DNA of 64,000 nucleotides from Candidatus Marinacidobacterales bacterium (GCA_965219415.1 CBDCNP010000002.1:5056001-5120000); one strand, 5' to 3'; positions 13,292 to 63,680 are shown, numbered from the stretch's first letter. Notes: generated by a model not told the origin, from the sequence alone. Program-made: numbers and translations.

Positions 13292-14705
13292 CGTATCCGC
13301 CTTTCAGAAAGTGTCCACGAAACTGGATCAAGCCCAACGCACCGAGGCGAGCTCTTGCATCGTCGGAGTGACGAGGCCGAGAAGGTCGTGGCATCCACAT
13401 GCTGTCGGATGAGATGCACGACGGTCTGTTCCAGCATCGGGGCGGGCAGTCGCCAGCCGGAGAGGTCCTTTTGGCCACTGTGCTGGATGAGGCGCCGGGA
13501 GACGTAGTAGCGGAGCCGTTGCCCGTTTTTCTTTTTGGTGTGGCTCGGCGTCAGCCGGTCCCCGGTCTCATCGAAGAGCTTGCCTGCCAGTGGGGAACGG
13601 GTTGCATGGCCCTTCGTCGTGCGTCTCCTTGGTTTGGCAGCCCCTGCCTGCAGCTGCGTTTGGACCGCGTCCCAGAGCTCCGGAGCGATGATCGATGGAT
13701 GCTGGCCCTCGTAGACACGCCTCTGGTGCCGGATGCGGCCGGCGTAGAGAGGATTGGTCAGCAGGCAGTGGAGGTGTCCGCGACGGAACGGCAGCCCGCC
13801 CGTTAGGGTTCCATCCGCGGCGAAGCGTCGCTTGGTGCGCAGTCCCAGACGGTCCGCGTCGGCCTTCACCTGCCGGAGCGTTCCGTGCTGCCGGTACAGC
13901 GCATAGAGCGTCCGGACCGTTTCGGCCTCAGCCTCGTTGATGCGCAGCGTGCGCTCGTCCTTCTCATAGCCGAGCGGTACGCGGCCGCCCATCCATAGTC
14001 CCTTGCGCTTGGAGGCAGCGACCTTATCGCGGATCCGCTCGGCCGTGACTTCTCGCTCGAATTGTGCGAAGGACAGCAGCATATGCAGCGTCAGTCGTCC
14101 CATGCTGGTCGCGGTGTTGAAGGACTGAGTCACCGAGACGAAAACCGCGCCGGGTTGCGGCCGAATGCCCGCCATAGGTCCGGCACTGGCGTTCGTACGC
14201 GAGAACGCGGCACAGGAAAGCGCGTGAGAACGAACTTGGCGGAGCAGCCTCGAAGGTCTGCTCCCAGACCCGCCGCAGGCTAGGAAGGTCCAAACCGTCC
14301 AGAACGACCCTCCGGCCAGCTCTTGTATCCTGCGGCATCACCGGACGTTCGCTCTTTTGCGCCGTAAAGTCCAGTCCAATGGGCGCTTCCGCGGGTGCGC
14401 AGTTCGCGGCCTGCAGCTCGTCCTGCAGCCGATTTGAGCCAGCCAGCCGTGCGTACCCCAGTGGGCCTGTCGCCCGCCACCCGCAGCCCAGGGGTCGGAA
14501 GCCAGCCCTGCGGCTCGAAATACTCTGGATTCTGCACGGATTCCAAGGGCGTCTAAGCTGCTGATTTGTGGTCTATTGCAAAAGGGCCGAGTTTTGGCAC
14601 AGGACGGGAAGGCCGGGTTGGCATCCAGCTCCTCGCCCGACACGACGAGCCGCGCTTGGAGTTGGTAGAGGCCGGTCGCCCTTGGAGCTTCGACGGCGAT
14701 GGGGC

Positions 14706-14882
14706 TGTGCCCTCTATTTATTCATCCGTGCGCGCCGAACTTGATCGGTCTCCGGTCTCCCGGGACCATGCCTGCATGATCTCGTCGTTTGTTCGCGCTC
14801 GGCCTTGGCACGGCCGCAAACACAAACACTAAGTTGCTGATTTATGGGCTATTTCAAAAGGGCCGAGCTTTGGCACAGGACG
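14706..14882. mobile_element. Hybrid-ended MITE (B end TGTGCC(T/C)TCTATTTATTCATCC to A end)
   Basis: Outward-facing B and A termini around the start of an rve transposase (MISSFVRA). Confidence 0.65.
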
Positions 14883-14941
14883 GCGTGGGCCTAGTTGTCC
14901 CCGTCGCCGTGCGCCATCTTGATTGCGAAGGTTGGATTACC

Positions 14942-15259
14942 TCAAGCTTTGCGCAGCCGCTTCACCGCAAGCACCACCAGAACCAGCGCCAGGATCAAAA
15001 GACCGAACATGAGCCCGGGGCTCATCCCGGTCTCCGCTGCCGTCGCCTCATCCGTTTCAGCGGTGGACTCTGCCATTTCTTCTACCGATTCGGCAGCCGA
15101 GTCCGCCATCTCGCCAGCAGCCTCAGCGGCTTCCCCAGCGGCGTCGGTTACCGCTTCCGATTCCTGCACGGCCTCCGATTCCTGCGCGGCGATGGCGTGG
15201 GTGAAACCCACTATCAACATAAGAGTTGCGATCGCAGCGAAACCAAAGATTCTCTTCAT
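14942..15259 (-). CDS. Small acidic exported protein with C-terminal membrane anchor
   Basis: AGGAGG RBS, signal peptide, E/A-rich linker, TM helix followed by KRLRKA. Confidence 0.7.
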   Translation of the reverse strand: MKRIFGFAAIATLMLIVGFTHAIAAQESEAVQESEAVTDAAGEAAEAAGEMADSAAESVEEMAESTAETDEATAAETGMSPGLMFGLLILALVLVVLAVKRLRKA

Positions 15260-16009
15260 CGCTCCCTCCTAATAGAACCCAACAATGCCATATATACAAA
15301 ATGTGAGAACGATGCAAGCGAAAGAAAGCCAGAGACGTTTGCCCCGAAGCCCACCACTCCTTAGGCCCGCCCAGGAGGATGCCGCGGAAGCGCAGGCGGC
15401 CGGTCCTCATGATCGGCGGACGGGTGCGAAGTCCGCTACCCGCAGCTCGCCCGGCAGCCGATTTGAGCCAGCCGTGCGCACGCCCGGTGGGCCTGTCGCT
15501 CGCCACCCGCAGCCCAGGGGGCAGAAGCCAGCCCTGCGGCGCGAAATACCCTCGATTCTGCGCGGATTCCAAGGGCGTCTAAGCTGCTGATTTGTGGTCT
15601 ATTTCTAAAGGGCCGAGTTTTGGCACAGGACGGGGTCGGAGGCGATGTCGGCGATTCGAGTTCCCCGTACGCGCAGGGAAAACACAGTCCAGCAAGGGGA
15701 TGCCACGCTCCCGAGCGGAAACCTGGGTCCAGGCCCGGGCCGCACTTGGACCAGAACGTGCTAGCCCGCTGCGCCGCGGTAGCCCCGGCCTCGATTCTAG
15801 GTCCTCTAGAGACGAGAGCGCGAACAAACGACGAAATCATGCCGGCACGGTCCCGGCAGACCGGAGACTAATCAAGTTCGGTGCGCACGGGTGAATAAAT
15901 AGAAGGCACAGCCGAGTTTTGGCACAGGACGGGCTGGCCGCCAACACTTAATTGCGGAAGCACCGCACAGGACGCGGTCTTGAGTTCGTTTGTGTTTTTG
16001 GACACGACG

Positions 16010-16084
16010 CGTTGGGCCCACGGACCAGGATCTCTCCATCCTTCGCGATCCTGACCTCGACTCCCTCGACGGGCTGTCCTACCG
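16010..16084 (-). pseudogene. 75-bp fragment of an AMP-dependent acyl-CoA ligase between two termini
   Basis: Translates VGQPVEGVEVRIAKDGEILVRGPN, a typical long-chain acyl-CoA ligase segment. Confidence 0.7.
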
Positions 16085-16445
16085 CGTCCTGTGCCAAAAC
16101 TCGGCCCTTTTGAAATAGGCCATAAATCAGCAGCTTAGTGTCTGTGTTTGCGACCGGGCCAAGGGCCGTGGGCTTTACAATCGTCTTGGGCGGGCGGGTC
16201 GTCACCATGCAGATGACCAGGTGCTTCCGCCATAAACTGTTGGCAGCCGAGCTCTAACCCGTGTATGTGGTAGAGTTTGAGCTTGAATTTGAGAGACGCA
16301 GTTCTTTCTGCGATGCCGGCTGGGCTGACCACACGGTGGCTGACGTCCAGGGACATCTTCGTGTTCACGCCGACATTCTTATTTATGGTGTTTGCCGACG
16401 CAGGCAGGCCAACTGACACTAGCATTCAAACGCGGCGTAGCAACA

Positions 16446-17888
16446 TATCTGGACTCCTCTAGTCAAGCCCCTTTCTTTCTAGTCACGCCCCTTTCTTAAT
16501 AAATCTTCCATCGAAGCTGCGCATCCATCGCGTCGTGACGAGTGGGTCAGACTGCAAACGTATCTTCGGCCTCAGTGAGGAGCGTCTTGGGTGCTCCGGG
16601 CCATGATGGAAAATCCGCGCGCGAGGAGCCAATCACTTTGAACGACCTCTTAGGGCCAGTGTTGCTATTGGCTTGACCCCGCGCCGGTCCGACCGGTACG
16701 CCATCAGTTGGATGGGTATCGTCGCAGCCTCTTTTGGAAGGGAAAAAGGAAAACACGAAAGTGGAGCCTCTAAATCTAAGCGGCCACCGGCGACTGGAAT
16801 TCACTCTCGCGGGTGGAGACGGCCCAGACGATCCGGGCGAGTTTGTTGGCGACAGCAATCACGGCCTTGTTGTGTCCCCGCGAGCGGTGGACCTTCCGAG
16901 CCCAGGCGCGGAGCTTGTCGGGCGGGCTCTTGCTGACGTTCGCCGCGCGGAGCACGGCGCGCCCGCCCTGGGTGAGGAGCATACGGAGGTAGGAGTCGCC
17001 ACGCTTGGTGATGCGTCCGAGGCGGCGAATGTCGCCACTGGAGTTTTCCTTGGGAACTAGGCCGAGGTAGCTCGAGAAGCGGCGCCCCGATGGGAAGCGG
17101 CGAAGATCGCCGACGAAGCCCACGATGGCGGTCGCGGCCAGAAGTCCGATGCCGGGAATGGCGAGAAGTCGTTGGACTTCAGGAAGCTGCTTGGTGAGCG
17201 CCTTGAGCTCGTGCTCGATGCTAGCGCACTTGTCCTTGAGTTCTCGAATCTCGGAGCAGGCATCACGGAGATGCGAACGGAGCACGTCGGGCAAATCAGA
17301 ATCAGCGTCTTCGACGAGTTCGAAGAGGGCGGGCACGACGAAGTGAGCGCCCTTTGGGATGATGAATCCGAGTTCGCGCAGGAGCCCGCGTACGGCATTG
17401 ATGCGTGCGGTCCGTGTGGAGAGCCATCCTGAGCGCAGGCGATGGAGCGCAGCGAGGGTGTGCTGGTGCACGGACTTGATGGGTACGGGAAGAAGCTCCT
17501 CGTTCCTGTAGGCCTCGAGCAACGCCTTCGTGTCGGCGCGGTCGTTCTTGCTCCCGCGTCGATACGGCCTCACGAGGTGAGGTGGGAGCAGGACGACGTC
17601 GTGTCCCAACCTTCGGAACGTCCTTGCCCAGAAGTGAGCCGAGCCGCAGGCTTCGAGAAGCACGGTGGCAGCGCTCTGTTTGGCAAAGAACGACACCAAT
17701 TTGGGTCGACTCACACGGAGTTGCTTGGACACCTTCCCCGCTTCTCCCGAGATGGCAATCTCGAAGACGTTCTTTGCAAGATCCACAGCGATTGTCGTAT
17801 CTTTCATTCGGACTCCTCCTTTTCGATGCGTATTCGACTGACTTTGGCACATCGATGCCGTCTATGTCAGTGGAGGAGTCCATTCCAT
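16446..17888 (-). mobile_element. IS110 family (IS1111 type), copy 1
   Basis: 1443 bp; subterminal IR TGGACTCCTC/GAGGAGTCCA; TG core at both junctions. Confidence 0.93.
16776..17807 (-). CDS. IS110 transposase/bridge recombinase
   Basis: AVDLAK, LLEACG, KNDRAD (DEDD); PGIG..ENSSG; AGGAGG RBS. Confidence 0.93.
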   Translation of the reverse strand: MKDTTIAVDLAKNVFEIAISGEAGKVSKQLRVSRPKLVSFFAKQSAATVLLEACGSAHFWARTFRRLGHDVVLLPPHLVRPYRRGSKNDRADTKALLEAYRNEELLPVPIKSVHQHTLAALHRLRSGWLSTRTARINAVRGLLRELGFIIPKGAHFVVPALFELVEDADSDLPDVLRSHLRDACSEIRELKDKCASIEHELKALTKQLPEVQRLLAIPGIGLLAATAIVGFVGDLRRFPSGRRFSSYLGLVPKENSSGDIRRLGRITKRGDSYLRMLLTQGGRAVLRAANVSKSPPDKLRAWARKVHRSRGHNKAVIAVANKLARIVWAVSTRESEFQSPVAA

Positions 17889-18004
17889 CACTTGATGGCG
17901 GAAGCACCCCCGGAGTGTAACGGAACTGCATGCTGGACCGAGATGGCGCGGATCAGGATAGGATAGCGGGCAGGACCGGCAACGGCTTTCAGGAGAGGAC
18001 CGCC

Positions 18005-19423
18005 ATGGCGAGTAAAGAGAAATTGCAGGCGTTTGTTGACGGATTTTGGGACGACGAGATCCTTCCCACCATCCAGGACTACATTCGCGTTCCCAACGTA
18101 TCTCCGGTGTTCGATCCCGACTGGGAACAAAACGGGCACATGGAGAAGGCGCACGAGCTTGCAAAGCGCTGGGTGGAGACGCATAAACCCGAAGGCTCGA
18201 CGCTCCACGTGGGGCGGTTGCCCGGTCGCACCCCGCTGCTGCTGTTAGAAGTGCCCGGAAAGAGCGATCGGACGGTTGTCATGTACGGGCATCTGGATAA
18301 ACAGCCGGAAATGACGGGGTGGCGTGATGGGCTCGGCCCTTGGGAGCCGGTAATGGAGGGCGAGAAACTCTATGGTCGTGGCGGGGCCGATGACGGCTAC
18401 GCAGTTTTCGCCTCGGTCTGTGCCCTACACGCGCTTCGTGCCCAGAATCTGGACCACGCGCGGGTGGTTGCCATCATCGAGTTCTCTGAGGAGAGCGGCT
18501 CTCCGGACCTTCCTGCTTACGTGGATCATTTCGAGGAACTGCTCGGCCAGCCCGAGCTCGTCGTTTGCCTGGATTCGGGAGCCGGCAATTACGATCAGTT
18601 CTGGTCTACGATCTCGCTGCGTGGGCTAGTGGGCGGCAAATTGAAGGTGCAGGTGCTTCAGGAAGGCGTCCATTCCGGCGATGCGAGCGGTATCGTCCCA
18701 TCCTCCTTCCGACTGTTTCGACCGTTGCTGGATCGTTTGGAAGATGCCGCGACGGGCCGGGTTCTGCCCGACGCCCTTCGTGTCGACATCCCCGCGCAGC
18801 GGGTCGAACAAGCGCGCCGGGTCGCCGAAGTTCTGAAAGACGGAGTGTACAGCAAGTTTCCGTGGATGAGTGGGATGAGGCCGGTCGAAGAAGATCCGAC
18901 CGAGCTCATCTTGAATCGCACTTGGCGACCCCAACTCGAGATCACCGGCCAGGACGGAATTCCCCCCGTGCAAAAGGCCGGCAATGTGCTGAGGCCCTAC
19001 ACGACCCTCAATCTGTCGCTACGGCTCCCGCCCACTCTCGCAACCGAGAAGGCGAAAGCCGTGGTGAAGGAACTTCTGGAAAAGGATCCGCCATACGGAG
19101 CCCATGTATCCGTCGAGTTCAACGAGCCGGCACAAGGTTGGAGCGCACCCGAGCTTTCTCCATGGCTCGGTCAGGCGATCGGGGAGGCCTCGGAGACTTT
19201 TTACGGAAAACCCGCCATGCACATGGGCGAGGGAGGCTCGATACCTTTCATGGGGATGTTGGGCGAGAAGTTCCCCAGCGCCCAGTTCGTGATCACCGGT
19301 GTACTGGGCCCCCAAAGCAACGCCCACGGACCCAACGAGTTCTTACACGTCGGGTACGCCAAGAAGCTCACCGCGTGTACGGCGCATATTCTGGGGAAAC
19401 ACCTGGAGAGCTCGGGGCGCTAG
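18005..19423 (+). CDS. M20 family metallo-dipeptidase
   Basis: YGHLDKQP, GRGGADDG, EESGS, HSG, NAHGPNE. Confidence 0.9.
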   Translation: MASKEKLQAFVDGFWDDEILPTIQDYIRVPNVSPVFDPDWEQNGHMEKAHELAKRWVETHKPEGSTLHVGRLPGRTPLLLLEVPGKSDRTVVMYGHLDKQPEMTGWRDGLGPWEPVMEGEKLYGRGGADDGYAVFASVCALHALRAQNLDHARVVAIIEFSEESGSPDLPAYVDHFEELLGQPELVVCLDSGAGNYDQFWSTISLRGLVGGKLKVQVLQEGVHSGDASGIVPSSFRLFRPLLDRLEDAATGRVLPDALRVDIPAQRVEQARRVAEVLKDGVYSKFPWMSGMRPVEEDPTELILNRTWRPQLEITGQDGIPPVQKAGNVLRPYTTLNLSLRLPPTLATEKAKAVVKELLEKDPPYGAHVSVEFNEPAQGWSAPELSPWLGQAIGEASETFYGKPAMHMGEGGSIPFMGMLGEKFPSAQFVITGVLGPQSNAHGPNEFLHVGYAKKLTACTAHILGKHLESSGR

Positions 19424-19602
19424 ACGGACACCCGCCGCGGTAGCCCCAGCCTCGATTCTGGACCCCGTCCTGTGCCAAAACTCAGCCCTTTTGAATAGGC
19501 CGGTGCTTCCGCCATCAAGTGATGGAATGGACTCCTCCACTGACATAGACGGCATCGATGTGCCAAAGTCAGTCGAATACGCATCGAAAAGGAGGAGTCC
19601 GA

Positions 19603-21814: not shown

Positions 21815-23098
21815 TGTGCATCGTCAAAACTGCTCCGCCCACGAAATCAAGGACTTACGCTCCGCTTGAATTCCGGGCCGAAGACGGCGAAACTCCGCCG
21901 CTATGCTCAACGTTGTTGTCTTCCTCGTCTCACTTGGGGTCCGTGCCATTCGGGCGATGTGTCGGCGCCGCGCCGACCTGGTGTTGGAGAACGTCGCTTT
22001 GCGGCAGCAAGTGACGGCGCTGAAGAAAGAGCGCCCACGGCCCACCGCTCGACGACACGGAACGGGCTTTCTGGGTTGCCCTTCGAGGTTCGTGGCCCGT
22101 GTGGGCGAGCCGCCTGCTCATCGTCCACGCGGACACCGTAGCCCGTTGGCATCGCGACCGATTCCGACGGTACTGGGCAAAGATCTCGCAGCGCCGCCAT
22201 CCCGGTCGGCCTCGGATTGATGCCGAGATTCGTCGCCTCGTCCGCACGATGGCGCAAGACGGCTGGGGGGCGCCACGCATCCATGCTGAGCTCACCAAGC
22301 TCGGTTTCATCATCTCCGAGAGCACGGTGTCGCGATACCTGCCGCGGCGTCCCGCGGAGCCCGACCAGCTGAAACGATGGATGGCTTTCTTGCGCAACCA
22401 TAAAGACGATATCGCCGCCATGGATCTGTTCACCGTGCCCACCGCGTCGCTCCGGCTGCTGTACGGCTTCTTCGTCATCGAGCACGGTCGCCGGCACATC
22501 GTTCACTTCAACGCCACGTTCCACCCGACGTCTGCTTGGGTTATTCAGCAACTGCGTGAGGCGTTTCCCTACGACACCGCTCCGAGATATCTCATCTTCG
22601 ATCGCGACTTCATCTTTAACGCTGCGGTCATCGAGTTCATCAAGGCAACGGGCACAAAACCCGTTCGCACTTCGTTTCGCAGCCCATGGCAAAACGGAAC
22701 CGCGGAGCGGTGGGTCGGCAGCTGCCGTCGCGAGCTCCTTGAGCACGTCGTGGTTCTCGGCGCATGTCATCTCATCCGGCTCGTGCGAGCTTACATCAGC
22801 TACTATCACGAGGACCGTTGCCACTTGGGGCTGAACAAGGACACACCGAGCTTGAGAACGGTCACGCACCGACCGTCTCCTACGGCGAAAGTAGTCGCAC
22901 TGCCGCGAGTCGGTGGACTGCACCATCGATACGAGTGGCGAGAGGCAGCCTGAGTCAGCTTGGTCGCTCGCGTTACTCGGCTGGTCGCCGAGAAGTTCGT
23001 CCTCAGCACCTTCCCTCGCGCGCTGACCACGCTCTCCAGCATGTGCTCGAGGGCGGTCCGGGCCCTAGAGTCCAGTCCCGGATTAATGATGATGGACA
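21815..23098 (+). mobile_element. rve (integrase-core, IS481-like) element with frameshifted transposase at 21903-22953
   Basis: Left end TGTGCATCGTCAAAAC, right end ..AATGATGATGGACA; ENVALRQQ, WGAPRIHAEL, DLFTV, SPWQNG, GGLHHRY; frameshift near 22046. Confidence 0.75.
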
Positions 23099-25553: not shown

Positions 25554-25589
25554 GTGTGGCCAGCAGCCTCGATGAAGGTGACCTGACCC

Positions 25590-25780
25590 CGTCGTGTCCA
25601 AAAACACAAACGAACTCAAGACCGGTGCGCCGGGGCGTTTCGGATGAGAGGTGTCTAGGGTTGGTTGGCAATGGGAGCTAGAATGAGAGGTCTGCTCGGG
25701 AGCGCCTATCGCAGAGCCAATGCCGCGTCGGCTGGTCTCTGCGAATTTCGAGAACGCCGTTCGGGTTTTCGGACACGACG
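25590..25780. mobile_element. MITE bounded by C-type termini
   Basis: CGTCGTGTCCAAAAACAC ... GTTTTCGGACACGACG; the C end recurs at 11411, 16009, 26428, 34778, 45020, 53762, 53848. Confidence 0.7.
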
Positions 25781-25881
25781 CCATTGAGCAGAGCTACCCT
25801 CCTTGGCCCGGTCGCAAACACAGTCACTAAGCTGCTGATTTGATGGTGAAATTCAAGAGGGCCGAGTTTTGGCACAGGACG

Positions 25882-29508: not shown

Positions 29509-30104
29509 CGGGGAACCTCCGCTGCACCATAGACCAGGAGCTTCGCTTCGTCAATAGGTGGGGAGCGTGTCGCGCCCGTCAAGCTGCCCGCACGCGACCC
29601 GGGCCAAGGGTCGTAGGCTTTACAATCGTCTGGCCCGAGGGTGTTATCTTCGAATCCATCATGACGTACCATGTGCAATCCTTCCTGTTCGTTCTGGCTG
29701 GTTGGGTCAACCGACAGCAGCAGGATGTGATTGACTACCTGCGAGAGGAGAACCGTGTGCTCCGAGCCCGGGCTTCGGGGCAAACGTCTCAAGCTCTCGG
29801 ACGACGACCGGCGCAGGCTCGCCGTCAAGGCCCAGACTTTGGGCCGCGAGGTGCTGGCCGAGATTGCGTCCGTTGCCACACCCGCTACGCTTCTGCGCTG
29901 GTACCGCTGCCTCATCGCAGCCAAGTACGATGCACCAAGAAACCGAAGTCCAGGCCGACCTCCGACGGCGAAGGACATCCGTGTGTGTTTGCTACTCTGT
30001 TTTGGCCCATATTGATCGTCTGATTTGGCCCACCCGTATCGAACCGTTAGTCTTCCCGGGGCGAAGTCCCGGGAAGGAGGTGTCGGTTGGAAAGGGGTGC
30101 CAAA

Positions 30105-47257: not shown

Positions 47258-47525
47258 TACCGGACGTTCGCTCTTTTGCGCCGTAAAGTCCAGTCCAATG
47301 GGCGCTTCCGCGGGTGCGCAGTTCGCGGCCTGCAGCTCGTCCTGCAGCCGATTTGAGCCAGCCAGCCGTGCGTACCCCAGTGGGTCTGTCGCCCGCCACC
47401 CGCAGCCCAGGGGTCGGAAGCACGCCCCGCGGCGCGAAATACCCTGGATTCTGCGCGGATTCCAAGGGCGTCTAAGCTGCTGATTTGTGGTCTATTTCTA
47501 AAGGGCCGAGTTTTGGCACAGGACG

Positions 47526-50898: not shown

Positions 50899-51366
50899 TG
50901 TTGGCGGCCGCCGCGTAACCTGTTCGCGTGCTAGAGTCTTAGCCTGATTTCGAGAGGCGCAGTTCTTTCGTCGATGCCGGCTGGGCCGAGTTTTGGCACA
51001 GGACGCGATCCCGTATGGTGCAAATAGTACGTCGAGCTCGCGTCGGCCTGTGGAGGGTTGATGACCGGATCTGCGCAAAGCGAGGATTCGATGGGCCGCG
51101 AGCCGAGGTCAATGCCACGACGATACGAAACCCACGGGGCGGCTCGGACGGCACTCGACGCTGGGCCCATCCGCGTCCTGGTCCTGGGGAAAATCGTCTA
51201 GCAAACGGTTGCCGAGACCCTGGTGATTTCTCCTGCACAGGCCTGGATCCGATGGCATCGTCAGACATATCGCCCCTTATCCAAGCACATTTGCCACGTC
51301 GGCTCGCTTGACCGGCGCATAGGCGCCCCGTAGGATACCGTAGGCCTCACCGAAAAGGAGCTTCCG

Positions 51367-53025: not shown

Positions 53026-53416
53026 GCGAGCCGATCGTGACTGCGTCCTGTGCCAAAACTCGGCCCTCTTGAAATAGCCGATAAATCAGCAGCTTAGCGT
53101 CTATGTTTTGCGATGGTGCCAAGGGCCGTGGGCTTTACAATCGTCTGGCCCGAGGGTGTTATCTTCGGATCCATCATGACGTACCATGTGCAATTCCTAC
53201 TGTTGGTCAGGCAGCCGTTGTTCGATCGGGCAGCCCTGCTGCTCACACAGACCTCAAGGGTGCTTCCGCCATTAAGTGTTGGTAAAATGACACTAAGACT
53301 TTACGGTGCATTAAATTACAGCCATGGTCTTTCAAAAGGGCCGAGTTTTGGCACAGGACGGGTTCCGATTGTACTTAGCCTTTCCCCTCGTGTCCAAAAG
53401 GATGCGTCCCTAAGGC

Positions 53417-54585: not shown

Positions 54586-54856
54586 GAGAGGAATTCTATA
54601 TCCGAGGGTGGGTGGTTGTGCAACGCACGCGGATGAATAAATAGAATGCACAGGACTTTCCTCTCATCCGAAACCGTTCGGCGCGACGGGACGTTTCGGA
54701 TGCCTGCGATGGTCGGCCGCTTCTGGCCGGGTTTCTTTTTTGCGGATCACAGCCAACTATAATTAATGATGAAGGACACGCAACCGACCTCGCATCGCCC
54801 AACAGGGACTGCAACCTGCTGACCCGCCGGGCCTTTGAGTATTTTGACCAGACGCC

Positions 54857-55207
54857 ATGCGCGCCTCGCGGCTGCCGGCCGTGAAGACGCTGGCGCAGTT
54901 CGACTTCACCTTCCAGCCCAGTATCAAGCGGGAGCAGATCGAGAGCCTGCACGAGCTCGGTTTCCTCGAGCGTGCCGAGAACGTCATCCTGCTAGGGCCG
55001 CCCGGCGTGGGCAAGACGCACCTGGCCATCAGCCTGGCCGTTGCGGCCGCCGAGGTGGGCCGCCGCGTCTACTACGGCACGTTAGCCAGGTTGATCGACT
55101 CGCTCACCGAAGCCAAGGCTGCGGGCAACCTCTCCCGGCGCCTGCGAGTGCTGACACATCCGGCGCTGCTCGTGGTGGACGAGATCGGCTACCTCCCGGT
55201 CAGGTAG
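54857..55207 (+). pseudogene. IstB fragment of a second IS21
   Basis: KTLAQFDF, GPPGVGKTHLA, VDEIGY; starts at the D terminus at 54854. Confidence 0.8.
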
Positions 55208-56064: not shown

Positions 56065-56391
56065 CGATCACTGCCAACCCGTATGGTGCAAATGGTACGT
56101 CGAACTCGACGTCGGCCCGTGGAGGGTCGATGACGGAATCTGCGCGAAGCGAGGATTCTATGGGCGGTGCTTCCGCAATCAAGTGTTGGTGGCTGCCGCG
56201 TAACCCGCTCGTGTGCTAGAGTTTGAGCCTGATTTCGAGAGACGCAGTTCTTTCGGCGATGCGGATTGGGCTGACCACACGGTGCCTGACGTTCAGGGAC
56301 ACCTTCGTGTGCACGCCGACATCATTGTTAATGGCGTTCGCCGACACAGGCAGGCCAGCTGACACTAGCATTCAAACACGGCGTAGCAACA

Positions 56392-57834
56392 TATCTGGAC
56401 TCCTCTAGTCAAGCCCCTTTCTTTCTAGTCACGCCCCTTTCTTAATAAATCTTCCATCGAAGCTGCGCATCCATCGCGTCGTGACGAGTGGGTCAGACTG
56501 CAAACGTATCTTCGGCCTCAGTGAGGAGCGTCTTGGGTGCTCCGGGCCATGATGGAAAATCCGCGCGCGAGGAGCCAATCACTTTGAACGACCTCTTAGG
56601 GCCAGTGTTGCTATTGGCTTGACCCCGCGCCGGTCCGACCGGTACGCCATCAGTTGGATGGGTATCGTCGCAGCCTCTTTTGGAAGGGAAAAAGGAAAAC
56701 ACGAAAGTGGAGCCTCTAAATCTAAGCGGCCACCGGCGACTGGAATTCACTCTCGCGGGTGGAGACGGCCCAGACGATCCGGGCGAGTTTGTTGGCGACA
56801 GCAATCACGGCCTTGTTGTGTCCCCGCGAGCGGTGGACCTTCCGAGCCCAGGCGCGGAGCTTGTCGGGCGGGCTCTTGCTGACGTTCGCCGCGCGGAGCA
56901 CGGCGCGCCCGCCCTGGGTGAGGAGCATACGGAGGTAGGAGTCGCCACGCTTGGTGATGCGTCCGAGGCGGCGAATGTCGCCACTGGAGTTTTCCTTGGG
57001 AACTAGGCCGAGGTAGCTCGAGAAGCGGCGCCCCGATGGGAAGCGGCGAAGATCGCCGACGAAGCCCACGATGGCGGTCGCGGCCAGAAGTCCGATGCCG
57101 GGAATGGCGAGAAGTCGTTGGACTTCAGGAAGCTGCTTGGTGAGCGCCTTGAGCTCGTGCTCGATGCTAGCGCACTTGTCCTTGAGTTCTCGAATCTCGG
57201 AGCAGGCATCACGGAGATGCGAACGGAGCACGTCGGGCAAATCAGAATCAGCGTCTTCGACGAGTTCGAAGAGGGCGGGCACGACGAAGTGAGCGCCCTT
57301 TGGGATGATGAATCCGAGTTCGCGCAGGAGCCCGCGTACGGCATTGATGCGTGCGGTCCGTGTGGAGAGCCATCCTGAGCGCAGGCGATGGAGCGCAGCG
57401 AGGGTGTGCTGGTGCACGGACTTGATGGGTACGGGAAGAAGCTCCTCGTTCCTGTAGGCCTCGAGCAACGCCTTCGTGTCGGCGCGGTCGTTCTTGCTCC
57501 CGCGTCGATACGGCCTCACGAGGTGAGGTGGGAGCAGGACGACGTCGTGTCCCAACCTTCGGAACGTCCTTGCCCAGAAGTGAGCCGAGCCGCAGGCTTC
57601 GAGAAGCACGGTGGCAGCGCTCTGTTTGGCAAAGAACGACACCAATTTGGGTCGACTCACACGGAGTTGCTTGGACACCTTCCCCGCTTCTCCCGAGATG
57701 GCAATCTCGAAGACGTTCTTTGCAAGATCCACAGCGATTGTCGTATCTTTCATTTGGACTCCTCCTTTTCGATGCGTATTCGACTGACTTTGGCACATCG
57801 ATGCCGTCTATGTCAGTGGAGGAGTCCATTCCAT
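56392..57834 (-). mobile_element. IS110 family (IS1111 type), copy 4
   Basis: 1443 bp; one substitution noticed just upstream of the ATG. Confidence 0.93.
56722..57753 (-). CDS. IS110 transposase/bridge recombinase
   Basis: Same protein as the other copies. Confidence 0.93.
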   Translation of the reverse strand: MKDTTIAVDLAKNVFEIAISGEAGKVSKQLRVSRPKLVSFFAKQSAATVLLEACGSAHFWARTFRRLGHDVVLLPPHLVRPYRRGSKNDRADTKALLEAYRNEELLPVPIKSVHQHTLAALHRLRSGWLSTRTARINAVRGLLRELGFIIPKGAHFVVPALFELVEDADSDLPDVLRSHLRDACSEIRELKDKCASIEHELKALTKQLPEVQRLLAIPGIGLLAATAIVGFVGDLRRFPSGRRFSSYLGLVPKENSSGDIRRLGRITKRGDSYLRMLLTQGGRAVLRAANVSKSPPDKLRAWARKVHRSRGHNKAVIAVANKLARIVWAVSTRESEFQSPVAA

Positions 57835-58010
57835 CACTTGATGGCGGAAGCACCGGTCTATTTCAAAAGGGCCGAGTTTTGGCACAGGACGGGGTCGTCA
57901 CCATGCAGATTGACCACCTAGTCGAGAGCGAATATCCAAGCGTGTTCCTGAAGCTGTTTTCACGCTACGCCGAGCGGGCCCACCGAGGGGCTACCGTCGC
58001 CAGCGACCAT

Positions 58011-59077
58011 CTACGCGGCACGGCAGTAGTAGTTGAGAATGCCCCCAAGTCGCTCTCGCGACACGATGGGGACAGCGCTATTCGCGCTTGCCGGCAGAGG
58101 TGTGAGGAGCTCGTTGCCGAGACCTTGGTGGTTCCGTTCTGTGTGATAGTGCACTACGTATTCGGTTACCGCTGTGCGCAGGTGTCGCTCACTGAGAGGT
58201 ACGAAGCGGTCGAGACACTCTCGACGTATGGAGAGAACGAATCTTTCCGCGTATGCGTTCAGATTCGGACTGTTCGCTGGAAGGCGGAGGGGCTTCACAC
58301 CTGAATCTCTCAAGAGCCCACGTACCGCCTCGGTGAATAGCGGGTCCCGGTCGTGGATGAGGTACCGCTTGCCAAGGAGGAAACCATCCCACAGGTCCGT
58401 GAGGTTTCTTGCCGCCTGCTTCATCCACTCCCCCGTTTGGGTCCGAGGTCATCCCACCGATGCACACGCAGCGAGTGGCGATATCGATGACAAACAGGAC
58501 ATGGTAGCGGACGAGCCCGAACGGGTTCACCACCTCGACGGTGAACAGGTCTGTCGCAGCGATAGCGCCCCAATGAGCCTTAAGTGCTCCACGACATGCT
58601 CTTGCCCCGCTCCGGAGCCGGCGCGATACCGTGCTCGGCGAGGAGCCTCTTGATGGTGTTGCGTCCGAGTTCATGTCCGAGGTTCTTGAGTGCACCCCGC
58701 AGGCGCGTATATCCCCACGTCGGGTTCTCCTGCGCCACGCGCACAATGAGCTCACGGATGTCCTTCGCCGTCGGAGGTCGGCCTGGGCTCCGGTTCTTGC
58801 TGCCATCGTACTTGGCTGCGATGAGGCAGCGGTACCAGCGCAGGAGCGTAGCGGGTGTGGCAACCGACGCAATCTGGGCCAGCGCCTCGCGGCCTAAAGC
58901 TTGGGCCTTGACGGCGAGCCTGCGCCGCTCGTCGTCCGAGAGACTGAGACGCTTGCCCCGAAGCCCGGCTCGGAGCACACGGTTCTCCTCTTGCTGGTAG
59001 TCGATCACATCCTGCTGCTGGCGGTTGACCCAGCCAGCTAGAACGAGCAGTAGGAATTGCACGTGGTACGTCATCAT
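58011..59077 (-). pseudogene. rve transposase of the A-end element, frameshifted (element about 57892-59205)
   Basis: [51 protein letters not shown] spread over three frames; A terminus upstream. Confidence 0.82.
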
Positions 59078-59279
59078 GGAGCTGAAGATAACACCCTCAG
59101 GCCAGACGATTGTAAAGCCTACGGCCCTTGGCCCCGGCGCAAACACAGACACTAAGCTGCTGATTTATGGCCTATTTCAAAAGGGCCGAGTTTTGGCACA
59201 GGACGGGGACACATCTATTGAATCTGTCATGTGCTACTCGTGACACTTCCCTGATCGGAAGCACCCGGCTTCCCATGGC

Positions 59280-61808
59280 TCATGCCTTCACAGTATACGG
59301 ATCGGCTTCGCCCCACACTCGCCCGACGGCCGCGCCGGTCTTCTTCTCGAAACGCTCGATCAACTCGTGATTGCTCTCGACAAGGGCTTGCTCGGCTTTG
59401 ATCTCCGCCACTATTTTTTTCTGCGTTTTGAGGGACGGTAGAGGCAACTTTGCCTCATTCAGACTGCGAATGGGCAATTGCGGCTGTGCTGCACCTGATG
59501 TTATTGCGCCGAGCTGGTCCTTAAAATTCTGAGATTGAAAGAATTGAAAAAGATATTCTCCAGACAGCTCATCCTCTGCAGGTCTGAAAATGAGCATCCC
59601 AGAATTGATCCTCATAGAGTCAAACGGAACAGAGTAATTGTAAAAGCCTGTGTTCCCAATAGTTCCACGTGTCGTAAGGACGGTATCTTCACGACGGAGC
59701 TTGCCCTTTTTCAAAGCCGCGTCTTTTTCTCTCGTTATAAATTCCACCTTCTCGAAGTTGAAGCCATTTGGTCGGACATTTTTTGTGTTCAGAAAGACAC
59801 AGTAACCATCTGCTGAAAAGTCCTCCTTCTTCGGATAGTTCACTCCTCTGTCTCCGTCGATGATCTCGAAAGGAGCTTCTGCAAAGGTCGGCATCGGCCA
59901 AGCGGGTTCGATGGGAATATGCGGCCTATAATTGTCGACGACGGCGCGGGCGCCGTCGATGACCTTCTGGTAACCCTCGATCTCGGCGACGATCTCCTTC
60001 TGCACCTCCAGCGGCGGCAGGGGAATTTCCAAGTTAGTGAAAGACTTCCAACCGATTCGCGGAAGTTGAGCACCCGTGAGCAGACTCAGAACGGCTTTGT
60101 TGAAGCGAGCGCTTCTGAACATGTGAGCATACAACACTGGCAAGACTCGGCCATCTGACGGACGAACAACGAATATATCGGTCGAGCAAATGCCTTCTTG
60201 ATCTGCGAACCAGACTTTATTTAGGTTTGGGCGTAGCTTACCATAGAGAATGTCACCAAGTTGAAATCTGTTCTTCAGGCTCTTGATCTCAGCAGGGTCT
60301 TCAGCCACTACGTTTCCTATTAATTTACCACTTGTCTGGGTGATGTTTTGAAGGCTGACGTAAGTAACAGGCCCAGGCAATGATTTCGGGAGAACCGTCT
60401 CATCCGACTTCTTGAACACATCCCTGATCGGAACCATCGGCCAAACGCTGCTCGTCGTCTGACTTTCCCGATACCGCTCCCCACTTAGGTTGTATTCACC
60501 GTTCGCCGCAATCTTCCCCTTTGCGACGATCAATCCCAGCTTCGGCTGGAAGTCGTCCACCGGTTCCTGCGCTCGTAGCCGTTGCAAGTAACCGACGATC
60601 TCTTCACGCGCCAGCGGCAGGTCGTTCTTGTCGATCGGTCGCCGCTGAGCGCCTAGGTCGAAGCCGTCGTTTTCGACCTTCAAGAAGGCGATGCGATCCG
60701 TCTTCTTCGCAAGCGACTTGTCGAGGATGAGAATCGATGTCTTGACGCCCGAATAGGGGTTGAACACGCCTGCCGGCAGAGAAATGACGGCGACCAGGTA
60801 CTCCTCTACCAGCATCTTACGAAGCCGTTTGTAGGCGTTCTGGCTCTGGAAGATGATCCCCTCGGGCACGATGATGCCGGCCCGGCCGGAAGGCATCAGA
60901 TGTTCGGCCATATAGTCCACGAACAGCACCTCACTCCGCTTGGACTGCACTGAGAAGCGGTTGTGGGGCCGGATGCCACCCTTCGGCGACATGAACGGCG
61001 GATTGGCGAGAATCACGTCGGCATACTCATCCCAACGCTCCTCGCTGGTCAGCGTGTCGTATTCGAAGATATGCGGGTCGGCAAAGCCGTGCAGGTACAT
61101 GTTCACGAGCGACAGGCGCACCATATCGGGCGAAATGTCGTAGCCCTTGCAGTTTGCCGCTAGCTGCCCTTTGTCATCCGGCGTTAGCGTGATGTCGCCT
61201 TGAGCGTCAGTGTTAGCTGCAAGAATGTACTTGTAGGATGAAATCAGAAACCCCGCAGTGCCGCATGCAGGGTCTATCACCGTCTCGCCTTTTTTCGGCG
61301 CGATGATGGCGACAATGAAGTCAATGATGTGGCGTGGCGTGCGGAACTGCCCGGCGTCTCCCTGTGAGCCGAGGACGGAAAGCAGATACTCAAAGGCGTC
61401 GCCTAGACGCTCGGAGTGATCGTAGGTGAACTCGTCGACGACCTTGAGGAAAGCGCGTAGGGTCTCGGGGTCGCGATAAGGCAGGTAGGCGTTGTTGAAG
61501 ATATCGCGAAATAAAGGTGGAATGCCAGGATTCTCAGGCATCTTGGTGATGGCCTCGGCGTAGAGGTTCAAGGTCTCATGGCCGCCGAGGCCGGCGCGCA
61601 TCAGTTTGGCCCATCCATAGCGGGCGAACTCGTCGGCGAAGAAGCTGCGCTTCCCGCCGAGCTCCTCGCTCTCGGCGTCCATGTCGTCCATGAACTTGTA
61701 AATGAGCGCGATAGTGATCTGCTCGACTTGGCTCTTGGGGTCTGGAACCTTACCGACCAGGATGTCGCGGGCTGTGTCGATGCGGCGCTTGGTGTTGGAA
61801 TCCAGCAT
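59280..61808 (-). CDS. N6-adenine methyltransferase fused to two specificity domains (HsdM-HsdS fusion)
   Basis: GQFRTPRH, DPACGTAGF, ANPPF, then two TRD repeats ending IPLPPLEVQKEIV and LPLPSLKTQKKIV. Confidence 0.88.
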   Translation of the reverse strand: MLDSNTKRRIDTARDILVGKVPDPKSQVEQITIALIYKFMDDMDAESEELGGKRSFFADEFARYGWAKLMRAGLGGHETLNLYAEAITKMPENPGIPPLFRDIFNNAYLPYRDPETLRAFLKVVDEFTYDHSERLGDAFEYLLSVLGSQGDAGQFRTPRHIIDFIVAIIAPKKGETVIDPACGTAGFLISSYKYILAANTDAQGDITLTPDDKGQLAANCKGYDISPDMVRLSLVNMYLHGFADPHIFEYDTLTSEERWDEYADVILANPPFMSPKGGIRPHNRFSVQSKRSEVLFVDYMAEHLMPSGRAGIIVPEGIIFQSQNAYKRLRKMLVEEYLVAVISLPAGVFNPYSGVKTSILILDKSLAKKTDRIAFLKVENDGFDLGAQRRPIDKNDLPLAREEIVGYLQRLRAQEPVDDFQPKLGLIVAKGKIAANGEYNLSGERYRESQTTSSVWPMVPIRDVFKKSDETVLPKSLPGPVTYVSLQNITQTSGKLIGNVVAEDPAEIKSLKNRFQLGDILYGKLRPNLNKVWFADQEGICSTDIFVVRPSDGRVLPVLYAHMFRSARFNKAVLSLLTGAQLPRIGWKSFTNLEIPLPPLEVQKEIVAEIEGYQKVIDGARAVVDNYRPHIPIEPAWPMPTFAEAPFEIIDGDRGVNYPKKEDFSADGYCVFLNTKNVRPNGFNFEKVEFITREKDAALKKGKLRREDTVLTTRGTIGNTGFYNYSVPFDSMRINSGMLIFRPAEDELSGEYLFQFFQSQNFKDQLGAITSGAAQPQLPIRSLNEAKLPLPSLKTQKKIVAEIKAEQALVESNHELIERFEKKTGAAVGRVWGEADPYTVKA

Positions 61809-61816: not shown

Positions 61817-62066
61817 CTACGGTACGAACTGGTTCAAGGAAACGTAGTCCTTGACGTATTCTGGAATGAGATTGCGGTATTTGTCCGGCACGGCACGGAA
61901 GTCGCCGGTGGAAAAGGACGGGTTGGTAGCGAGCTCGGCGAAACGTTTACCATCGATGATGTCGCGTACTTGGTTACTGGTGGCATAGGCTTTGAAATAG
62001 TTCTTGATCGCCAGGATGACATCCGCTTCGTCGGGTTTGCAATCGGCTACGAACTTCGCAAACTCC
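61817..62066 (-). pseudogene. C-terminal remnant of the upstream, probably HsdR-like, gene
   Basis: Open frame ending YVKDYVSLNQFVP* 8 bp before the MTase ATG; cut exactly at the B terminus at 62067; HsdR identity inferred from position. Confidence 0.6.
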
Positions 62067-62373
62067 TGTGCCTTCTATTTATTCATCCGGGCGCCCCGAA
62101 CTTGATTAGTCTCCGGTCTGTCGGCACCATACCTGCTTGATTTCGTCGTTTGTTCGCGCTCTCATCTCCGCCTTCAAGGCTCATCGCGAGCTGGCTCTCG
62201 ACAATGTCGCTCTTCGGCAGCAGTTCGCCGTCCTCTGCCGTCCGGTGAAACGGCCGCGGCTCTCGAAGGTCGACCGCGGGTTGGGTAACTGTAAAGCTTG
62301 GGGGCCCTTGGCCCAGTCGCTAAGTTGCTGATTTATGGCCTATTTCAAAAGGGCCGAGTTTTGGCACAGGACG
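62067..62373 (+). mobile_element. Hybrid B/A-ended MITE
   Basis: B end, decayed rve N-terminus (ISSFVRALISAFKAHRELAL), then A end. Confidence 0.85.
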
Positions 62374-62604
62374 GGCGACGCTCGTACGGAGTACGGGACT
62401 GACTCGCTCACTCTCGCTCTGAGCGAACGCAACTGCAACACAGAGTAGAGAGGGGATGCCGGATAAAACGAAGGTTCTCAAGCGTCACCAAGCGTTTAGC
62501 ATTTGCTCGAAGCCTCGCCGCTGGACTTGCCGACGATGGTCGTTCCCCAAGAGAAAGACCATCATCGACTTGGCGGCGTCCGCCGCGAGTTCGAAGCCGA
62601 TATC

Positions 62605-63084
62605 TCAGTCGTATCGATGCCGTCCCGTCATGGCCCTGCCAACCAGACTCCAGTTCGCGATCGCCGATTCTCCAGCAGACGAACCAGTATGTGGGAATTC
62701 CGCGTGTCTGTTAAGCAACAGCACGTCAATCAGGTACGAAATCAACCGCGCGTCCCTGTCGTCATCCGTTCCCTCGTACTGCCGACGGTCTCGATTCACG
62801 TCCGCCTGAATCATCCTCCAGGTGCCCCCGTCTGCGGCGAAACGTACGACGTAAATGCAGAATCCGGTCCAACTCCGATGGAAGAACAACGCGTCATCCT
62901 TCCAGTAGATGAACCACTTGTCTTCCATGACCTCGGGTATCACTCCCTGGCGGATATGGTCCATTTCCTCCCGGGAGAACACTCGATCGAGCGTGACGGA
63001 CGCTCTACGCGCAGGCAGATCTATGGTCTTCCATGCGTTCGGGACCGCTGTTCTGACGTGCGTCCTCTTTTCGCTCCTTTCCAT
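62605..63084 (-). CDS. Conserved hypothetical protein
   Basis: 159-aa ORF with GVIPEVMEDKWFIY..FFHRSWTG motif. Confidence 0.65.
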   Translation of the reverse strand: MERSEKRTHVRTAVPNAWKTIDLPARRASVTLDRVFSREEMDHIRQGVIPEVMEDKWFIYWKDDALFFHRSWTGFCIYVVRFAADGGTWRMIQADVNRDRRQYEGTDDDRDARLISYLIDVLLLNRHAEFPHTGSSAGESAIANWSLVGRAMTGRHRYD

Positions 63085-63141
63085 CCCGTGTCGAGTTTAC
63101 CCGTCCCGGGACGTTCCGGTCCAGAGCCGCTACACCTACGC

Positions 63142-63478
63142 TGGGCTTGATCCGGTTTCGTGGACGGTTTAGTTAAGCTGGCGAAGTCATCATCCGTCGT
63201 TCAAACTCGGCCGGACTGACCTGGCCGAGGGTCGAGTGTCGTCGTCTCTGGTTGTAGAATACCTCGATGAAGTCGAAGAGGGCCATCTTGGCCTCGCCGC
63301 AACTGAGGAAGTGCTCCCCAAGCTCGTGCTTGACCGTGGAGAACCAGCTCTCGATGACGGCGTTGTCGTAGCAGTGCCGCGGCTTTTTTTAACACATCGC
63401 GCTCCACCCGCAACCGCCGGTTCTCTTTGCGGAGCCGCCGCAGCTCCTCGCGTTCCTCGCTCGTCAAGCTCGTCCGGC
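63142..63478 (-). mobile_element. Internally deleted copy of the IS3 element
   Basis: Matches about 12080-12310, then jumps into orfA; cut at the B terminus at 63479. Confidence 0.8.
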
Positions 63479-63680
63479 TGTGCCTTCTATTTATTCATCC
63501 GGGCGCCGGAAACGATTTGGTTGAAACCGGCTCCACTACGCCGGCTTCAACCAGCTCTTGTCAGCACCGAATGACTGAGATACAACGTGGTACTAACCTG
63601 GGGTCAGGTCAAACTCTAGCACGCGGCGAGTTACGCGGCGGCCGCCGACACTTGATTGCGGAAGCAACCCGAGCGCCAGC

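What the first reader, a model, noticed from the sequence alone, without database searches (positions are those of the whole stretch)
14585..63500. Island built from transposon termini: a possible rve/IS481-like end-driven gene capture and trimming platform
Seen: about 50 termini of at least seven related types, all starting CGT or TGT: A CGTCCTGTGCCAAAAC, B TGTGCCTTCTATTTATTC, C CGTCGTGTCCAAAAAC, D CGTCTGGTCAAAATAC, E CGTATGGTGCAAAT, F TGTGCTCCGCAAAAA, G TGTGCATCGTCAAAAC. Only one intact cognate transposase is present (33646-34713). Unrelated cargo alternates with these ends and is repeatedly cut exactly at the terminal base (amidohydrolase 40423, helicase 33004/33530, IS256 47526, istB 54855, hsdR-like 62066). 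None of the apparently complete elements has a TSD, whereas IS3 and IS21 in the same island do. About 19 of 24 A ends point the same way. Inference: this family moves ends singly or in any pairing (one-ended transposition or repeated adjacent deletion) and so assembles an integron-like cargo array without an integrase. I know no named system with this architecture.
Basis: partly seen in the sequence, partly recalled or inferred. Interest (0 to 1): 0.85.

Follow-up and report, generated by a model that had tools for sequence, protein, structure and literature searches.

The report
Transposon-end islands without target duplications
About a quarter of this bacterium's genome consists of islands built from the tips of one family of jumping genes that leave none of the usual insertion footprints and seem to cut, trim and stack neighbouring genes one tip at a time.

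Summary
The window has 50 termini of the named types. The genome has 1,508. With the seven original patterns, all 1,313 lie in about 25 islands totalling 1.89 of 8.05 Mb. Each end type belongs to its own subfamily of a single-ORF rve transposase, below the NCBIfam cut-offs for IS481 and IS3. None of 394 paired elements has a direct repeat of 2-40 bp, while other IS families nested in the same DNA do. Termini follow a short half-site (ACCC|). They abut truncated genes and elements, and the reciprocal halves are not kept. This fits joints made one end at a time with loss of adjacent DNA. Islands also hold recent copies of core genes, some flush with termini. The 'integron-like' analogy is weak, and known IS30/IS911/IS26 behaviours come close. 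The mechanism is inferred; no empty sites or long reads were available. First readers noted the same pattern in three other windows of this genome.

The parts
10627..10700 (-). tRNA-Gln(CTG) at the left edge of the island. Synteny with two same-genus genomes stops at about 10750-10848.
10857..14606 (-). Copy of a 3,058-bp unit with C and A termini that carries a large serine recombinase, here interrupted by another IS. It is the first element of the island.
12080..13337 (+). 1,258-bp IS of an unrelated family with a 3-bp TSD. It serves as a control showing that TSDs survive in this DNA.
14706..14882 (-). A-B miniature element (177 bp), no TSD.
15808..16044 (-). Stack of same-direction partial termini: C(1-35), A(1-10), A(1-21), then a B end.
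16441..17908 (-). IS110-family element, one of four near-identical copies in the window.
17910..19440 (+). M20 peptidase segment, a 98.8% copy of core DNA at C3:1448050-1449578. An A terminus lies 26 nt to its right.
19466..19501 (+). A terminus (nt 1-36) interrupted by the IS110-family copy at 19501-20969.
21815..23098 (+). IS-G copy (G left end, different right end); transposase frame split.
25588..25881 (.). C-type end fragments and an A terminus (25881, -).
27526..29508 (-). Radical SAM cargo gene; a variant A terminus at 27503-27518 lies just downstream.
29594..32765 (+). Fragment of an IS-A-type transposase gene split by an IS21-family element (29984-32568) with a 7-bp TSD.
32933..33003 (-). 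A terminus (71 nt kept) abutting the helicase fragment.
33004..33530 (+). Helicase C-terminal fragment bounded on both sides by termini.
33531..34729 (+). Intact IS-D (1,199 bp) with transposase at 33646-34713; flanks unrelated, no TSD.
34730..34836 (-). Stack of a 49-nt C end and a 57-nt A end directly outside the IS-D right end.
34985..36406 (-). Pyruvate kinase cargo gene.
36483..36742 (-). Two stacked A ends (146 nt and 113 nt) pointing the same way.
36740..37250 (+). IS-D fragment (nt 684-1194) cut at the A terminus 36742; its other half is absent.
39702..40423 (+). N-terminal half of an M20 peptidase gene cut at the A terminus 40424.
40744..43593 (-). MmeI-type restriction-modification cargo gene.
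44466..47525 (-). Second, uninterrupted serine-recombinase unit (recombinase at 45163-46824) ending in an A terminus.
47526..48306 (-). IS256-type element truncated at nt 783 of 1,209 by the A terminus.
50983..51027 (.). A terminus (-) and E terminus (+) back to back with a 6-bp spacer.
53044..53360 (+). A-A miniature element (317 bp), no TSD.
54810..55207 (.). D terminus (54854, -) abutting an IstB fragment (54857-55207).
56387..57891 (-). IS110-family copy sitting inside an A terminus (57855-57891).
57892..59205 (-). IS-A copy lacking its last ~110 nt; broken transposase.
59280..61808 (-). Type I R-M methylase/specificity fusion cargo gene.
62066..62373 (+). B..A element of 307 bp.

Best explanation
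The region is the left half of a 100-kb island (C3:5,067,411-5,167,552). The island begins beside a tRNA-Gln gene and is one of about 25 islands made of whole, miniature and broken copies of one superfamily of insertion sequences. Each end type (A-G) is the terminal repeat of its own subfamily of a single-ORF rve (DDE) transposase that is related to IS481 and IS3 but scores below their thresholds. SHOWN: (1) these elements carry no target-site duplication; (2) every terminus directly follows a short half-site, ACCC| for CGT-type ends and [G/C]C| for TGT-type ends; (3) termini commonly abut the truncated interior of another element or gene, and the reciprocal half is not kept; (4) the family is confined to islands while other IS families are spread everywhere. 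INFERRED: the transposase joins ends to nearby DNA one end at a time, by single-end strand transfer 5' of GGGT on the attacked strand. Processing of that joint removes the DNA between the end and its target (adjacent deletion). This piles up ends in one direction, trims cargo exactly at terminal bases and, together with a preference for sites inside other ends, keeps the family trapped in islands. Cargo includes defence genes, a tRNA-linked serine-recombinase element and recent copies of core genes. It enters by other or related routes and is then trimmed.
For: Counts and confinement:
- 1,313 ends of seven types lie only in islands totalling 1.89 Mb; 3 are on the 2.07-Mb contig C1.
- Other IS families have dozens of 99% copies in the core and on C1.
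- Cognate transposases: 310 tblastn HSPs, 73 full-length, none on C1.

No TSD:
- k=2-9 at offsets -8..+8 in 310 pairs.
- k=4-40 in the same pairs.
- k=8-40 at offsets 0-10: 0 of 394 pairs, against about 3 in shuffled partners.
- The same holds in the Gammaproteobacteria, Phycisphaerae and Planctomycetota homologues that I read.
- Control: unrelated ISs nested in the same elements show 3-9 bp TSDs.

Half-site: information only at positions -4..-1 and none out to -40, which excludes any fixed-length duplication with a symmetric target.

One-sided joints:
- 336 breakpoints in 18 reference elements have 0 reciprocal partners at delta -6..+7.
- At the A-end hot spot after nt 21 there are 20 same-direction stacks. 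None of the 15 5'-truncated A cores has a terminus at nt 21/22.
- Window fragments nearly all keep an outer terminus.

Precedent: deletions starting at an IR edge and single-strand-transfer IR-targeting in IS30/IS911 (PMC9333248, passages read).
Against: - No empty site, circle or polymorphic junction was seen, so every mechanistic step is inferred.
- Pure deletion cannot create new copies, yet 394 intact paired elements of uniform size exist. How they multiply without leaving paired target halves is unexplained.
- The three two-sided events found lost about 0-1, 7 and 21 bp of target. This fits neither a clean blunt model nor a simple deletion model.
- The reciprocal-half test misses retained fragments shorter than about 35 nt.
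- The ORF-restoration test was at control level but has low power.
- The flank logo is symmetric, as expected for concerted blunt insertion.
- Short-read contigs could not confirm the junctions.
Confidence: 0.5

Rival explanations
1. Concerted, blunt (zero-stagger) two-ended insertion into a palindromic ACCC|GGGT-like site, as in eukaryotic Spy elements. Later decay by recombination and deletion would erase one flank of most copies.
For: Flank logos are mirror-symmetric (ACCC| on the left, |GGGT on the right) and no duplication exists. The Spy precedent is a DDE transposon without TSD between AAA and TTT (PMC4122938, abstract read). One two-sided event differs from its paralogue by about 0-1 bp.
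Against: At the recurrent A21 site the other half of the target is not retained: 20 stacks on one side, none of 15 truncated cores on the other. There are 0 reciprocal halves among 336 breakpoints. Even 97-100% identical IS-D copies have unrelated flanks. Joined flanks do not restore reading frames above the shuffled control. No paralogous empty site was found among 873-1,113 candidate pairs.
Confidence: 0.15
2. Ordinary replicative (Shapiro-type) transposition that is almost always intramolecular. Both ends act together, each event gives a deletion or an inversion, and the duplicated target copies end up on different element copies.
For: Intramolecular replicative transposition gives deletions or inversions and loss of flanking repeats, and can assemble gene clusters (PMC7986276, passages read). 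It explains local confinement, unrelated flanks of young copies and copy gain through inversions.
Against: A fixed stagger requires the duplicated bases to sit next to both end types. With ACCC| at all ends, that needs GGGT at a fixed upstream position, and none is seen out to -40. Inversions should keep both target halves within the island, and none was found within 100 kb.
Confidence: 0.15
3. An ordinary tRNA-linked genomic island (or integrated plasmid DNA) that serves as a tolerated dumping ground for ISs and MITEs. Homologous recombination among hundreds of similar copies scrambles flanks and removes TSDs.
For: A tRNA-Gln and a serine-recombinase unit lie at the edge. The island locus is conserved in the genus. 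The cargo is typical of islands (R-M systems). Recombination and adjacent deletion are documented causes of missing TSDs (PMC11708052, abstract read).
Against: Other IS families insert all over the core and keep their TSDs even inside these islands. Tolerance and recombination therefore do not explain why this family alone is confined and never has a TSD. Recombination between copies would not create termini abutting non-homologous interiors at a preferred half-site. TSDs are also absent from low-copy homologues in other phyla.
Confidence: 0.1
4. Assembly artefact: repeats collapsed or mis-joined in a metagenome-assembled genome.
For: No long reads were available to me, and short-read contigs break at every repeat.
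Against: The genome is in 3 contigs with no N. Most repeats are 20-320 nt. The same termini occur in hundreds of copies in 9 of 40 relatives, including single-contig genomes. The unique cargo is present at about 100% identity in contigs of four runs from three studies.
Confidence: 0.03

Closest known systems
IS481 family (NCBIfam NF033577)
   Same: Single ORF of about 355 aa with an HTH plus an rve-type DDE core; elements of 1.2-1.4 kb; TGT termini in three of the subfamilies.
   Different: Scores 105 bits against a cut-off of 224. Four subfamilies start with CGT. No TSD, whereas IS481 members make 2-15 bp, mostly 6 bp (PMC10045372, passages read).
IS3/IS911 and IS30 copy-out-paste-in elements: IR-targeting and IR-junction-driven rearrangements
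   Same: An N-terminal ENxxLRxQL zipper-like motif, as I recall for IS3 OrfA (the resemblance is recalled, not tested). Single strand transfer next to an IR, and deletions that start at the edge of an IR (PMC9333248, passages read).
   Different: Those ISs give 2-4 bp TSDs in normal insertion and are not known to build islands. Abutted IR-IR junctions are rare here: 3 with a spacer of 6 bp or less. The IS3 model scores 70 against a cut-off of 160.
IS26/IS6 arrays (pseudo-compound transposons, translocatable units)
   Same: Cargo alternates with element copies that lack flanking repeats. Intramolecular events give deletions and assemble gene clusters (PMC7986276, passages read).
   Different: A different transposase family. 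IS26 arrays use whole IS copies in direct orientation and an 8-bp TSD around the array. Here most units are 20-150-nt partial ends in either orientation.
Spy transposons of invertebrates
   Same: DDE transposase, terminal inverted repeats, no TSD, mirror-symmetric flanks (PMC4122938, abstract read).
   Different: Eukaryotic and related to IS5/PIF-Harbinger. Spy empty sites were verified; here none was found, and the hot-spot data argue against concerted insertion.
Integron cassette arrays
   Same: Unrelated single genes separated by short repeats.
   Different: The repeats are transposon termini with cognate transposases. Orientation is mixed. Genes are truncated rather than delivered as intact cassettes.

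Membership tests
IS481 family | rve-type DDE catalytic core | tested here: met
   Pfam rve_3 at E=4.6e-7 and HTH_32. D175, D243 and E276 are invariant in five subfamilies.
IS481 family | NCBIfam NF033577 score at or above its cut-off (224 bits) | tested here: not met
   105.1 bits.
IS481 family | TGT...ACA termini | tested here: inconclusive
   B, F and G ends start with TGT; A, C, D and E start with CGT.
IS481 family | Target-site duplication (2-15 bp, mostly 6 bp) | tested here: not met
   0 of 394 pairs with any direct repeat of 8-40 bp. No excess for 2-9 bp.
IS3 family | NCBIfam NF033516 score at or above its cut-off (160 bits) | tested here: not met
   70.3 bits.
IS3 family | Two overlapping ORFs joined by a frameshift | tested here: not met
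   One continuous ORF of 355-380 aa in the window; 339-371 aa in the intact subfamily representatives.
IS3 family | 3-5 bp TSD | tested here: not met
IS6/IS26 family arrays | IS6-type transposase and whole IS copies in direct repeat | tested here: not met
   The transposase is rve_3/HTH_32. Most units are partial ends.
IS6/IS26 family arrays | Element copies inside arrays lack flanking repeats | tested here: met
Spy-like blunt insertion | No TSD, with symmetric flanking half-sites | tested here: met
Spy-like blunt insertion | Empty sites show the two flanks contiguous and unmodified | tested here: inconclusive
   No paralogous empty site was found. The reciprocal half is missing at the A21 hot spot.
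Integron | Uniformly oriented attC-bounded intact cassettes | tested here: not met
   Neighbouring A ends are 258 same against 229 different. Cargo is truncated.
Integron | intI integrase with attI at the array head | not tested
   29 window ORFs or frames were scanned against Pfam and none was a tyrosine recombinase. The window was not scanned exhaustively.
MITE (miniature inverted-repeat element) | Short, non-coding, terminal inverted repeats shared with an autonomous element, many copies of uniform size | tested here: met
   A-B elements of 147/178 bp, A-A of 317, F-F of 94, C-C of 129.
MITE (miniature inverted-repeat element) | Flanked by TSDs | tested here: not met

The most novel reading that the evidence does not exclude
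This is a widespread DDE (rve) transposon superfamily whose normal reaction is a one-ended strand transfer without duplication. The family thereby builds and stays inside self-confined islands, here a quarter of the genome. These islands copy in pieces of the core genome at their termini and then trim them. That would be a new mode of bacterial genome compartmentalisation and gene-fragment capture, without an integrase.
Probability: 0.3. Interest if true: 0.85.

Novelty: new variant of a known kind. Interest (0 to 1): 0.72.

Why it matters
DDE transposases are expected to leave target-site duplications, and annotation tools and textbooks rely on that. This family has at least 7,997 relatives at E<=1e-20 among the 8,000 candidates scored. 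It leaves none in 394 paired copies, and it is confined to islands that make up 24% of an 8-Mb genome. If its ends really act singly, that would give a testable mechanism for three things: how bacterial 'scrapyard' or defence islands are built and eroded, how gene fragments are duplicated into them, and why a mobile element can reach more than 1,500 termini without invading the core genome. It also matters in practice: IS and MITE finders that require TSDs will miss this family.

Tried and rejected
1. CG as a 2-bp TSD for CGT-type ends. Rejected: where a terminus abuts a known element, the reference does not read CG at the joint, and TGT-type ends have no equal dinucleotides.

2. Long IS481/IS1202-like TSDs (15-29 bp). 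None found.

3. Paralogous empty sites. Flank BLAST, 11-mer anchors and joined-flank BLAST gave only self-hits or three complex cases.

4. Joined-flank ORF restoration. At T=120 codons the counts were 7 (remove 0 nt), 17-18 (remove 1) and 7 (remove 2), against 12-15 in shuffled controls, n=393. No usable signal.

5. Reciprocal target halves. None found. The test is blind to fragments shorter than about 35 nt.

6. Stable IR-IR junctions. Only 3 back-to-back pairs have spacers of 6 bp or less.

7. Orthologous empty site for the C1 mini-island. Its flanks are 0.8 Mb apart in G001.

8. Reads. Four runs, kept only as short-read contigs, break at repeats. Their joints are explained by other repeat copies, for example IS21-free copies of the IS-A gene. 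There is no evidence on junction polymorphism.

9. attC-like reading of the repeats. Rejected from recalled attC consensus only, because cognate transposases flank the same ends.

10. Literature. Searches for the terminus sequence, the order name, TSD-less ISs and one-ended capture found no description of this family or architecture. ISfinder could not be consulted. Supplementary files were not opened.

11. G007 (unpublished) enters only the tally, with one 1-mismatch hit.

Full report
OBSERVATION. The terminus A 16-mer occurs 24 times in the window at up to 2 mismatches, against 0.04 expected, with 18 copies on the - strand. Aligning the copies shows a common module of about 54-58 nt, followed by several different interiors. 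With ten patterns the window holds 50 termini. Twenty are in convergent pairs under 1.6 kb and 30 are not. A BLAST map against a library of elements taken from the genome shows that almost every fragment in the window keeps an outer terminus and has lost its interior. Examples are IS-A 1-37, 1-80, 1-146 and 1139-1428; IS-D 684-1194 and 1106-1199; and A-A 1-113. Four of the five truncated-cargo claims were verified by Pfam. These are an M20 half at 40424, a Helicase_C fragment at 33004-33530, an IS256-type gene at 47526 and an IstB fragment at 54857. The hsdR-like claim was not verified. The IS21 copy has a 7-bp TSD and the 1,258-bp IS a 3-bp TSD.

GENOME SCALE. The window lies at C3:5,056,001-5,120,000 of an 8.05-Mb genome in three contigs. 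At up to 1 mismatch the seven types occur 526, 243, 191, 90, 14, 173 and 76 times, 1,313 in all. The distribution is bimodal. About 25 islands of 3-534 kb total 1.89 Mb and carry 0.4-1 end per kb. The remaining roughly 6.1 Mb has none, and the 2.07-Mb contig C1 has three. This is not general intolerance of the core to insertions. Other IS families (about 1,385, 1,373 and 1,258 bp, among others) have dozens of 99% identical copies in the non-island DNA, including C1.

WHAT THE ENDS ARE. A tblastn search with the window transposase gave 310 HSPs, 73 of them full-length and none on C1. They fall into subfamilies at about 97-100%, 75%, 48-52% and 31-34% identity. Each subfamily is flanked by its own end type: IS-D is 1,199 bp, IS-A about 1,428 bp, IS-G 1,286 bp and IS-B about 1,255 bp. 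Miniature derivatives are abundant: A-B elements of 147/178 bp, A-A of 317, F-F of 94/56 and C-C of 129. The protein has HTH_32 and rve_3 domains. It scores 105 bits on the IS481 model (cut-off 224) and 70 bits on the IS3 model (cut-off 160). D175, D243 and E276 are invariant across five subfamilies. The family is very large: 7,997 of the 8,000 scored candidates had E<=1e-20, and sources name them only 'putative transposase' or 'InsO family'.

NO TARGET DUPLICATION.
- Among 310 adjacent convergent pairs, no k of 2-9 at any offset from -8 to +8 exceeded shuffled partners meaningfully.
- None of k=4-40 did either.
- With ten patterns, 0 of 394 pairs had any direct repeat of 8-40 nt at offsets 0-10, against about 3 in shuffled controls.
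- Nine IS-D copies that are 96.7-100% identical have unrelated flanks.
- Homologues at 50-67% identity in Gammaproteobacteria, Phycisphaerae and Planctomycetota MAGs have the same CGT...ACG ends, cc|...|gg flanks and no repeats.

The flank logo carries information only at positions -4 to -1: A-C/T-C-C for CGT types and [G/C]-C for TGT types. Nothing appears out to -40. Both ends show the same inward-reading motif. Any fixed stagger k>0 would therefore need GGGT at position -k, and that is absent.

ONE-SIDED JOINTS. Half of all ends (642 of 1,313) abut DNA whose 16-mer occurs more than once in the genome. Even so, clean two-sided nested insertions of this family are almost absent. I found one D-in-D case with 7 bp of target missing and two complex cases with about 0-1 and 21 bp missing. 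Unrelated ISs gave about 20 clean nested insertions with TSDs in the same queries.

I found 336 breakpoints where a terminus abuts a truncated copy of one of 18 reference elements. No reciprocal half lay at delta -6..+7 within 100 kb, and distant pairs showed no peak either. The sharpest case is the A end cut after nt 21 by a TGT-type terminus (B, G, the IS-G right end or another type) pointing the same way. There are 20 such cases. The reciprocal product, a terminus followed by A nt 22 onward, is found in none of the 15 5'-truncated A cores. The retained side has the preferred ...GGC| flank, and the missing side would have a disfavoured one. This asymmetry is what single-end attack predicts, with loss of the DNA between the attacking end and its target. 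Concerted insertion does not predict it.

CARGO AND CAPTURE. The island starts about 150 bp from a tRNA-Gln gene. Its first element is a 3,058-bp unit with C and A termini that carries a 553-aa large serine recombinase. That unit is itself multi-copy. Synteny with two same-genus genomes (83-87% identity) stops at window positions 10,750-10,848. In G001, a single 6.34-Mb contig, 28 of 31 A ends lie in one island at this orthologous locus.

Islands also contain recent copies of single-copy core DNA, with 41 matches of at least 300 nt. The window's M20 gene (17910-19440) is a 98.8% copy of C3:1448050-1449578, and its orthologue in G001 sits in end-free DNA. I inspected 15 segments, and 12 looked like true captures. 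Six of these have a terminus of this family flush at one or both boundaries, often at a GGGT in the source. Four have IS110-like ends. Some captures are collinear multi-piece remnants of regions of at least 9 kb. Larger pieces therefore seem to enter first and are then eroded.

RELATIVES AND LITERATURE. The exact A 16-mer occurs 31-502 times in 9 of 40 relatives, from two of three families of the order. It occurs 0-2 times in the other 31, and the reversed-pattern control gives 0-2. Record titles of related loci name Candidatus Marinacidobacterales MAGs. No paper held the terminus sequence or the order name. The closest described processes are:
- IS30/IS911 IR-targeting through a single strand transfer, and deletions that begin at an IR edge (PMC9333248, passages).
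- Intramolecular replicative transposition and TSD loss in IS26 (PMC7986276, passages).
- TSD-less IS movements that accompany rearrangements (PMC11708052, abstract).
- Spy, a DDE transposon without TSD (PMC4122938, abstract).

LIMITS. No empty alleles, circles or long reads were available. Contigs of four runs confirm the unique cargo but break at repeats. Orientation coherence is local only: this island has 8 A ends on + and 26 on -, while genome-wide neighbouring ends are 258 same against 229 different. How intact copies multiply without leaving paired target halves remains unexplained.

VERDICT. It rests on anatomy, and it resembles known IS30/IS911/IS26 side reactions carried to an extreme. 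I rate it a new variant of a known kind, with interest 0.72.

Noticed in passing
window 16441-17908, 19501-20969, 49435-50903, 56387-57855: Four near-identical copies of a 1,469-bp IS110-family (RNA-guided transposase model, 302 bits) element. Two sit inside A termini after about nt 36, and the same joint recurs genome-wide. A second mobile element therefore seems to use the first family's end as its target.
   Followed up: partly
window 44466-47525 and 10857-14606; G000 C1:1119131-1122188: A 3,058-bp unit with C and A termini carries a 553-aa large serine recombinase. It is multi-copy in this genome and in three relatives, and it is the only DNA of this family on contig C1.
   Followed up: partly
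G000 contig C1 (2.07 Mb): C1 carries 3 of the 1,313 ends but shares other IS families with C3 at 99% identity. Its one mini-island lies at a rearrangement breakpoint relative to G001.
   Followed up: partly
window 21815-23098: This IS-G copy has its transposase split into two ORFs (21903-22220 and 22099-22953). Contigs from four runs show a 1-nt difference at 22039 at about half depth. This could be a frameshifted copy or a programmed frameshift.
   Followed up: no
window 32766-32931, 39231-39396, 53978-54144: A repeat of about 166 nt carries IS110-like end sequences without a transposase. It is possibly a miniature derivative of the IS110-family element.
   Followed up: no
window 22960-23697, 40744-43593, 59280-61808: The cargo includes a Peptidase_M78 (IrrE-like) gene, a complete MmeI-type R-M gene and a type I methylase/specificity fusion, so the content is defence-island-like.
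   Followed up: no
G000 C1:866041-867686: One core locus has been copied into two different islands (C3:3549612-3550936 and C3:4613010-4614571) with different boundaries. Each copy is flush with termini.
   Followed up: partly
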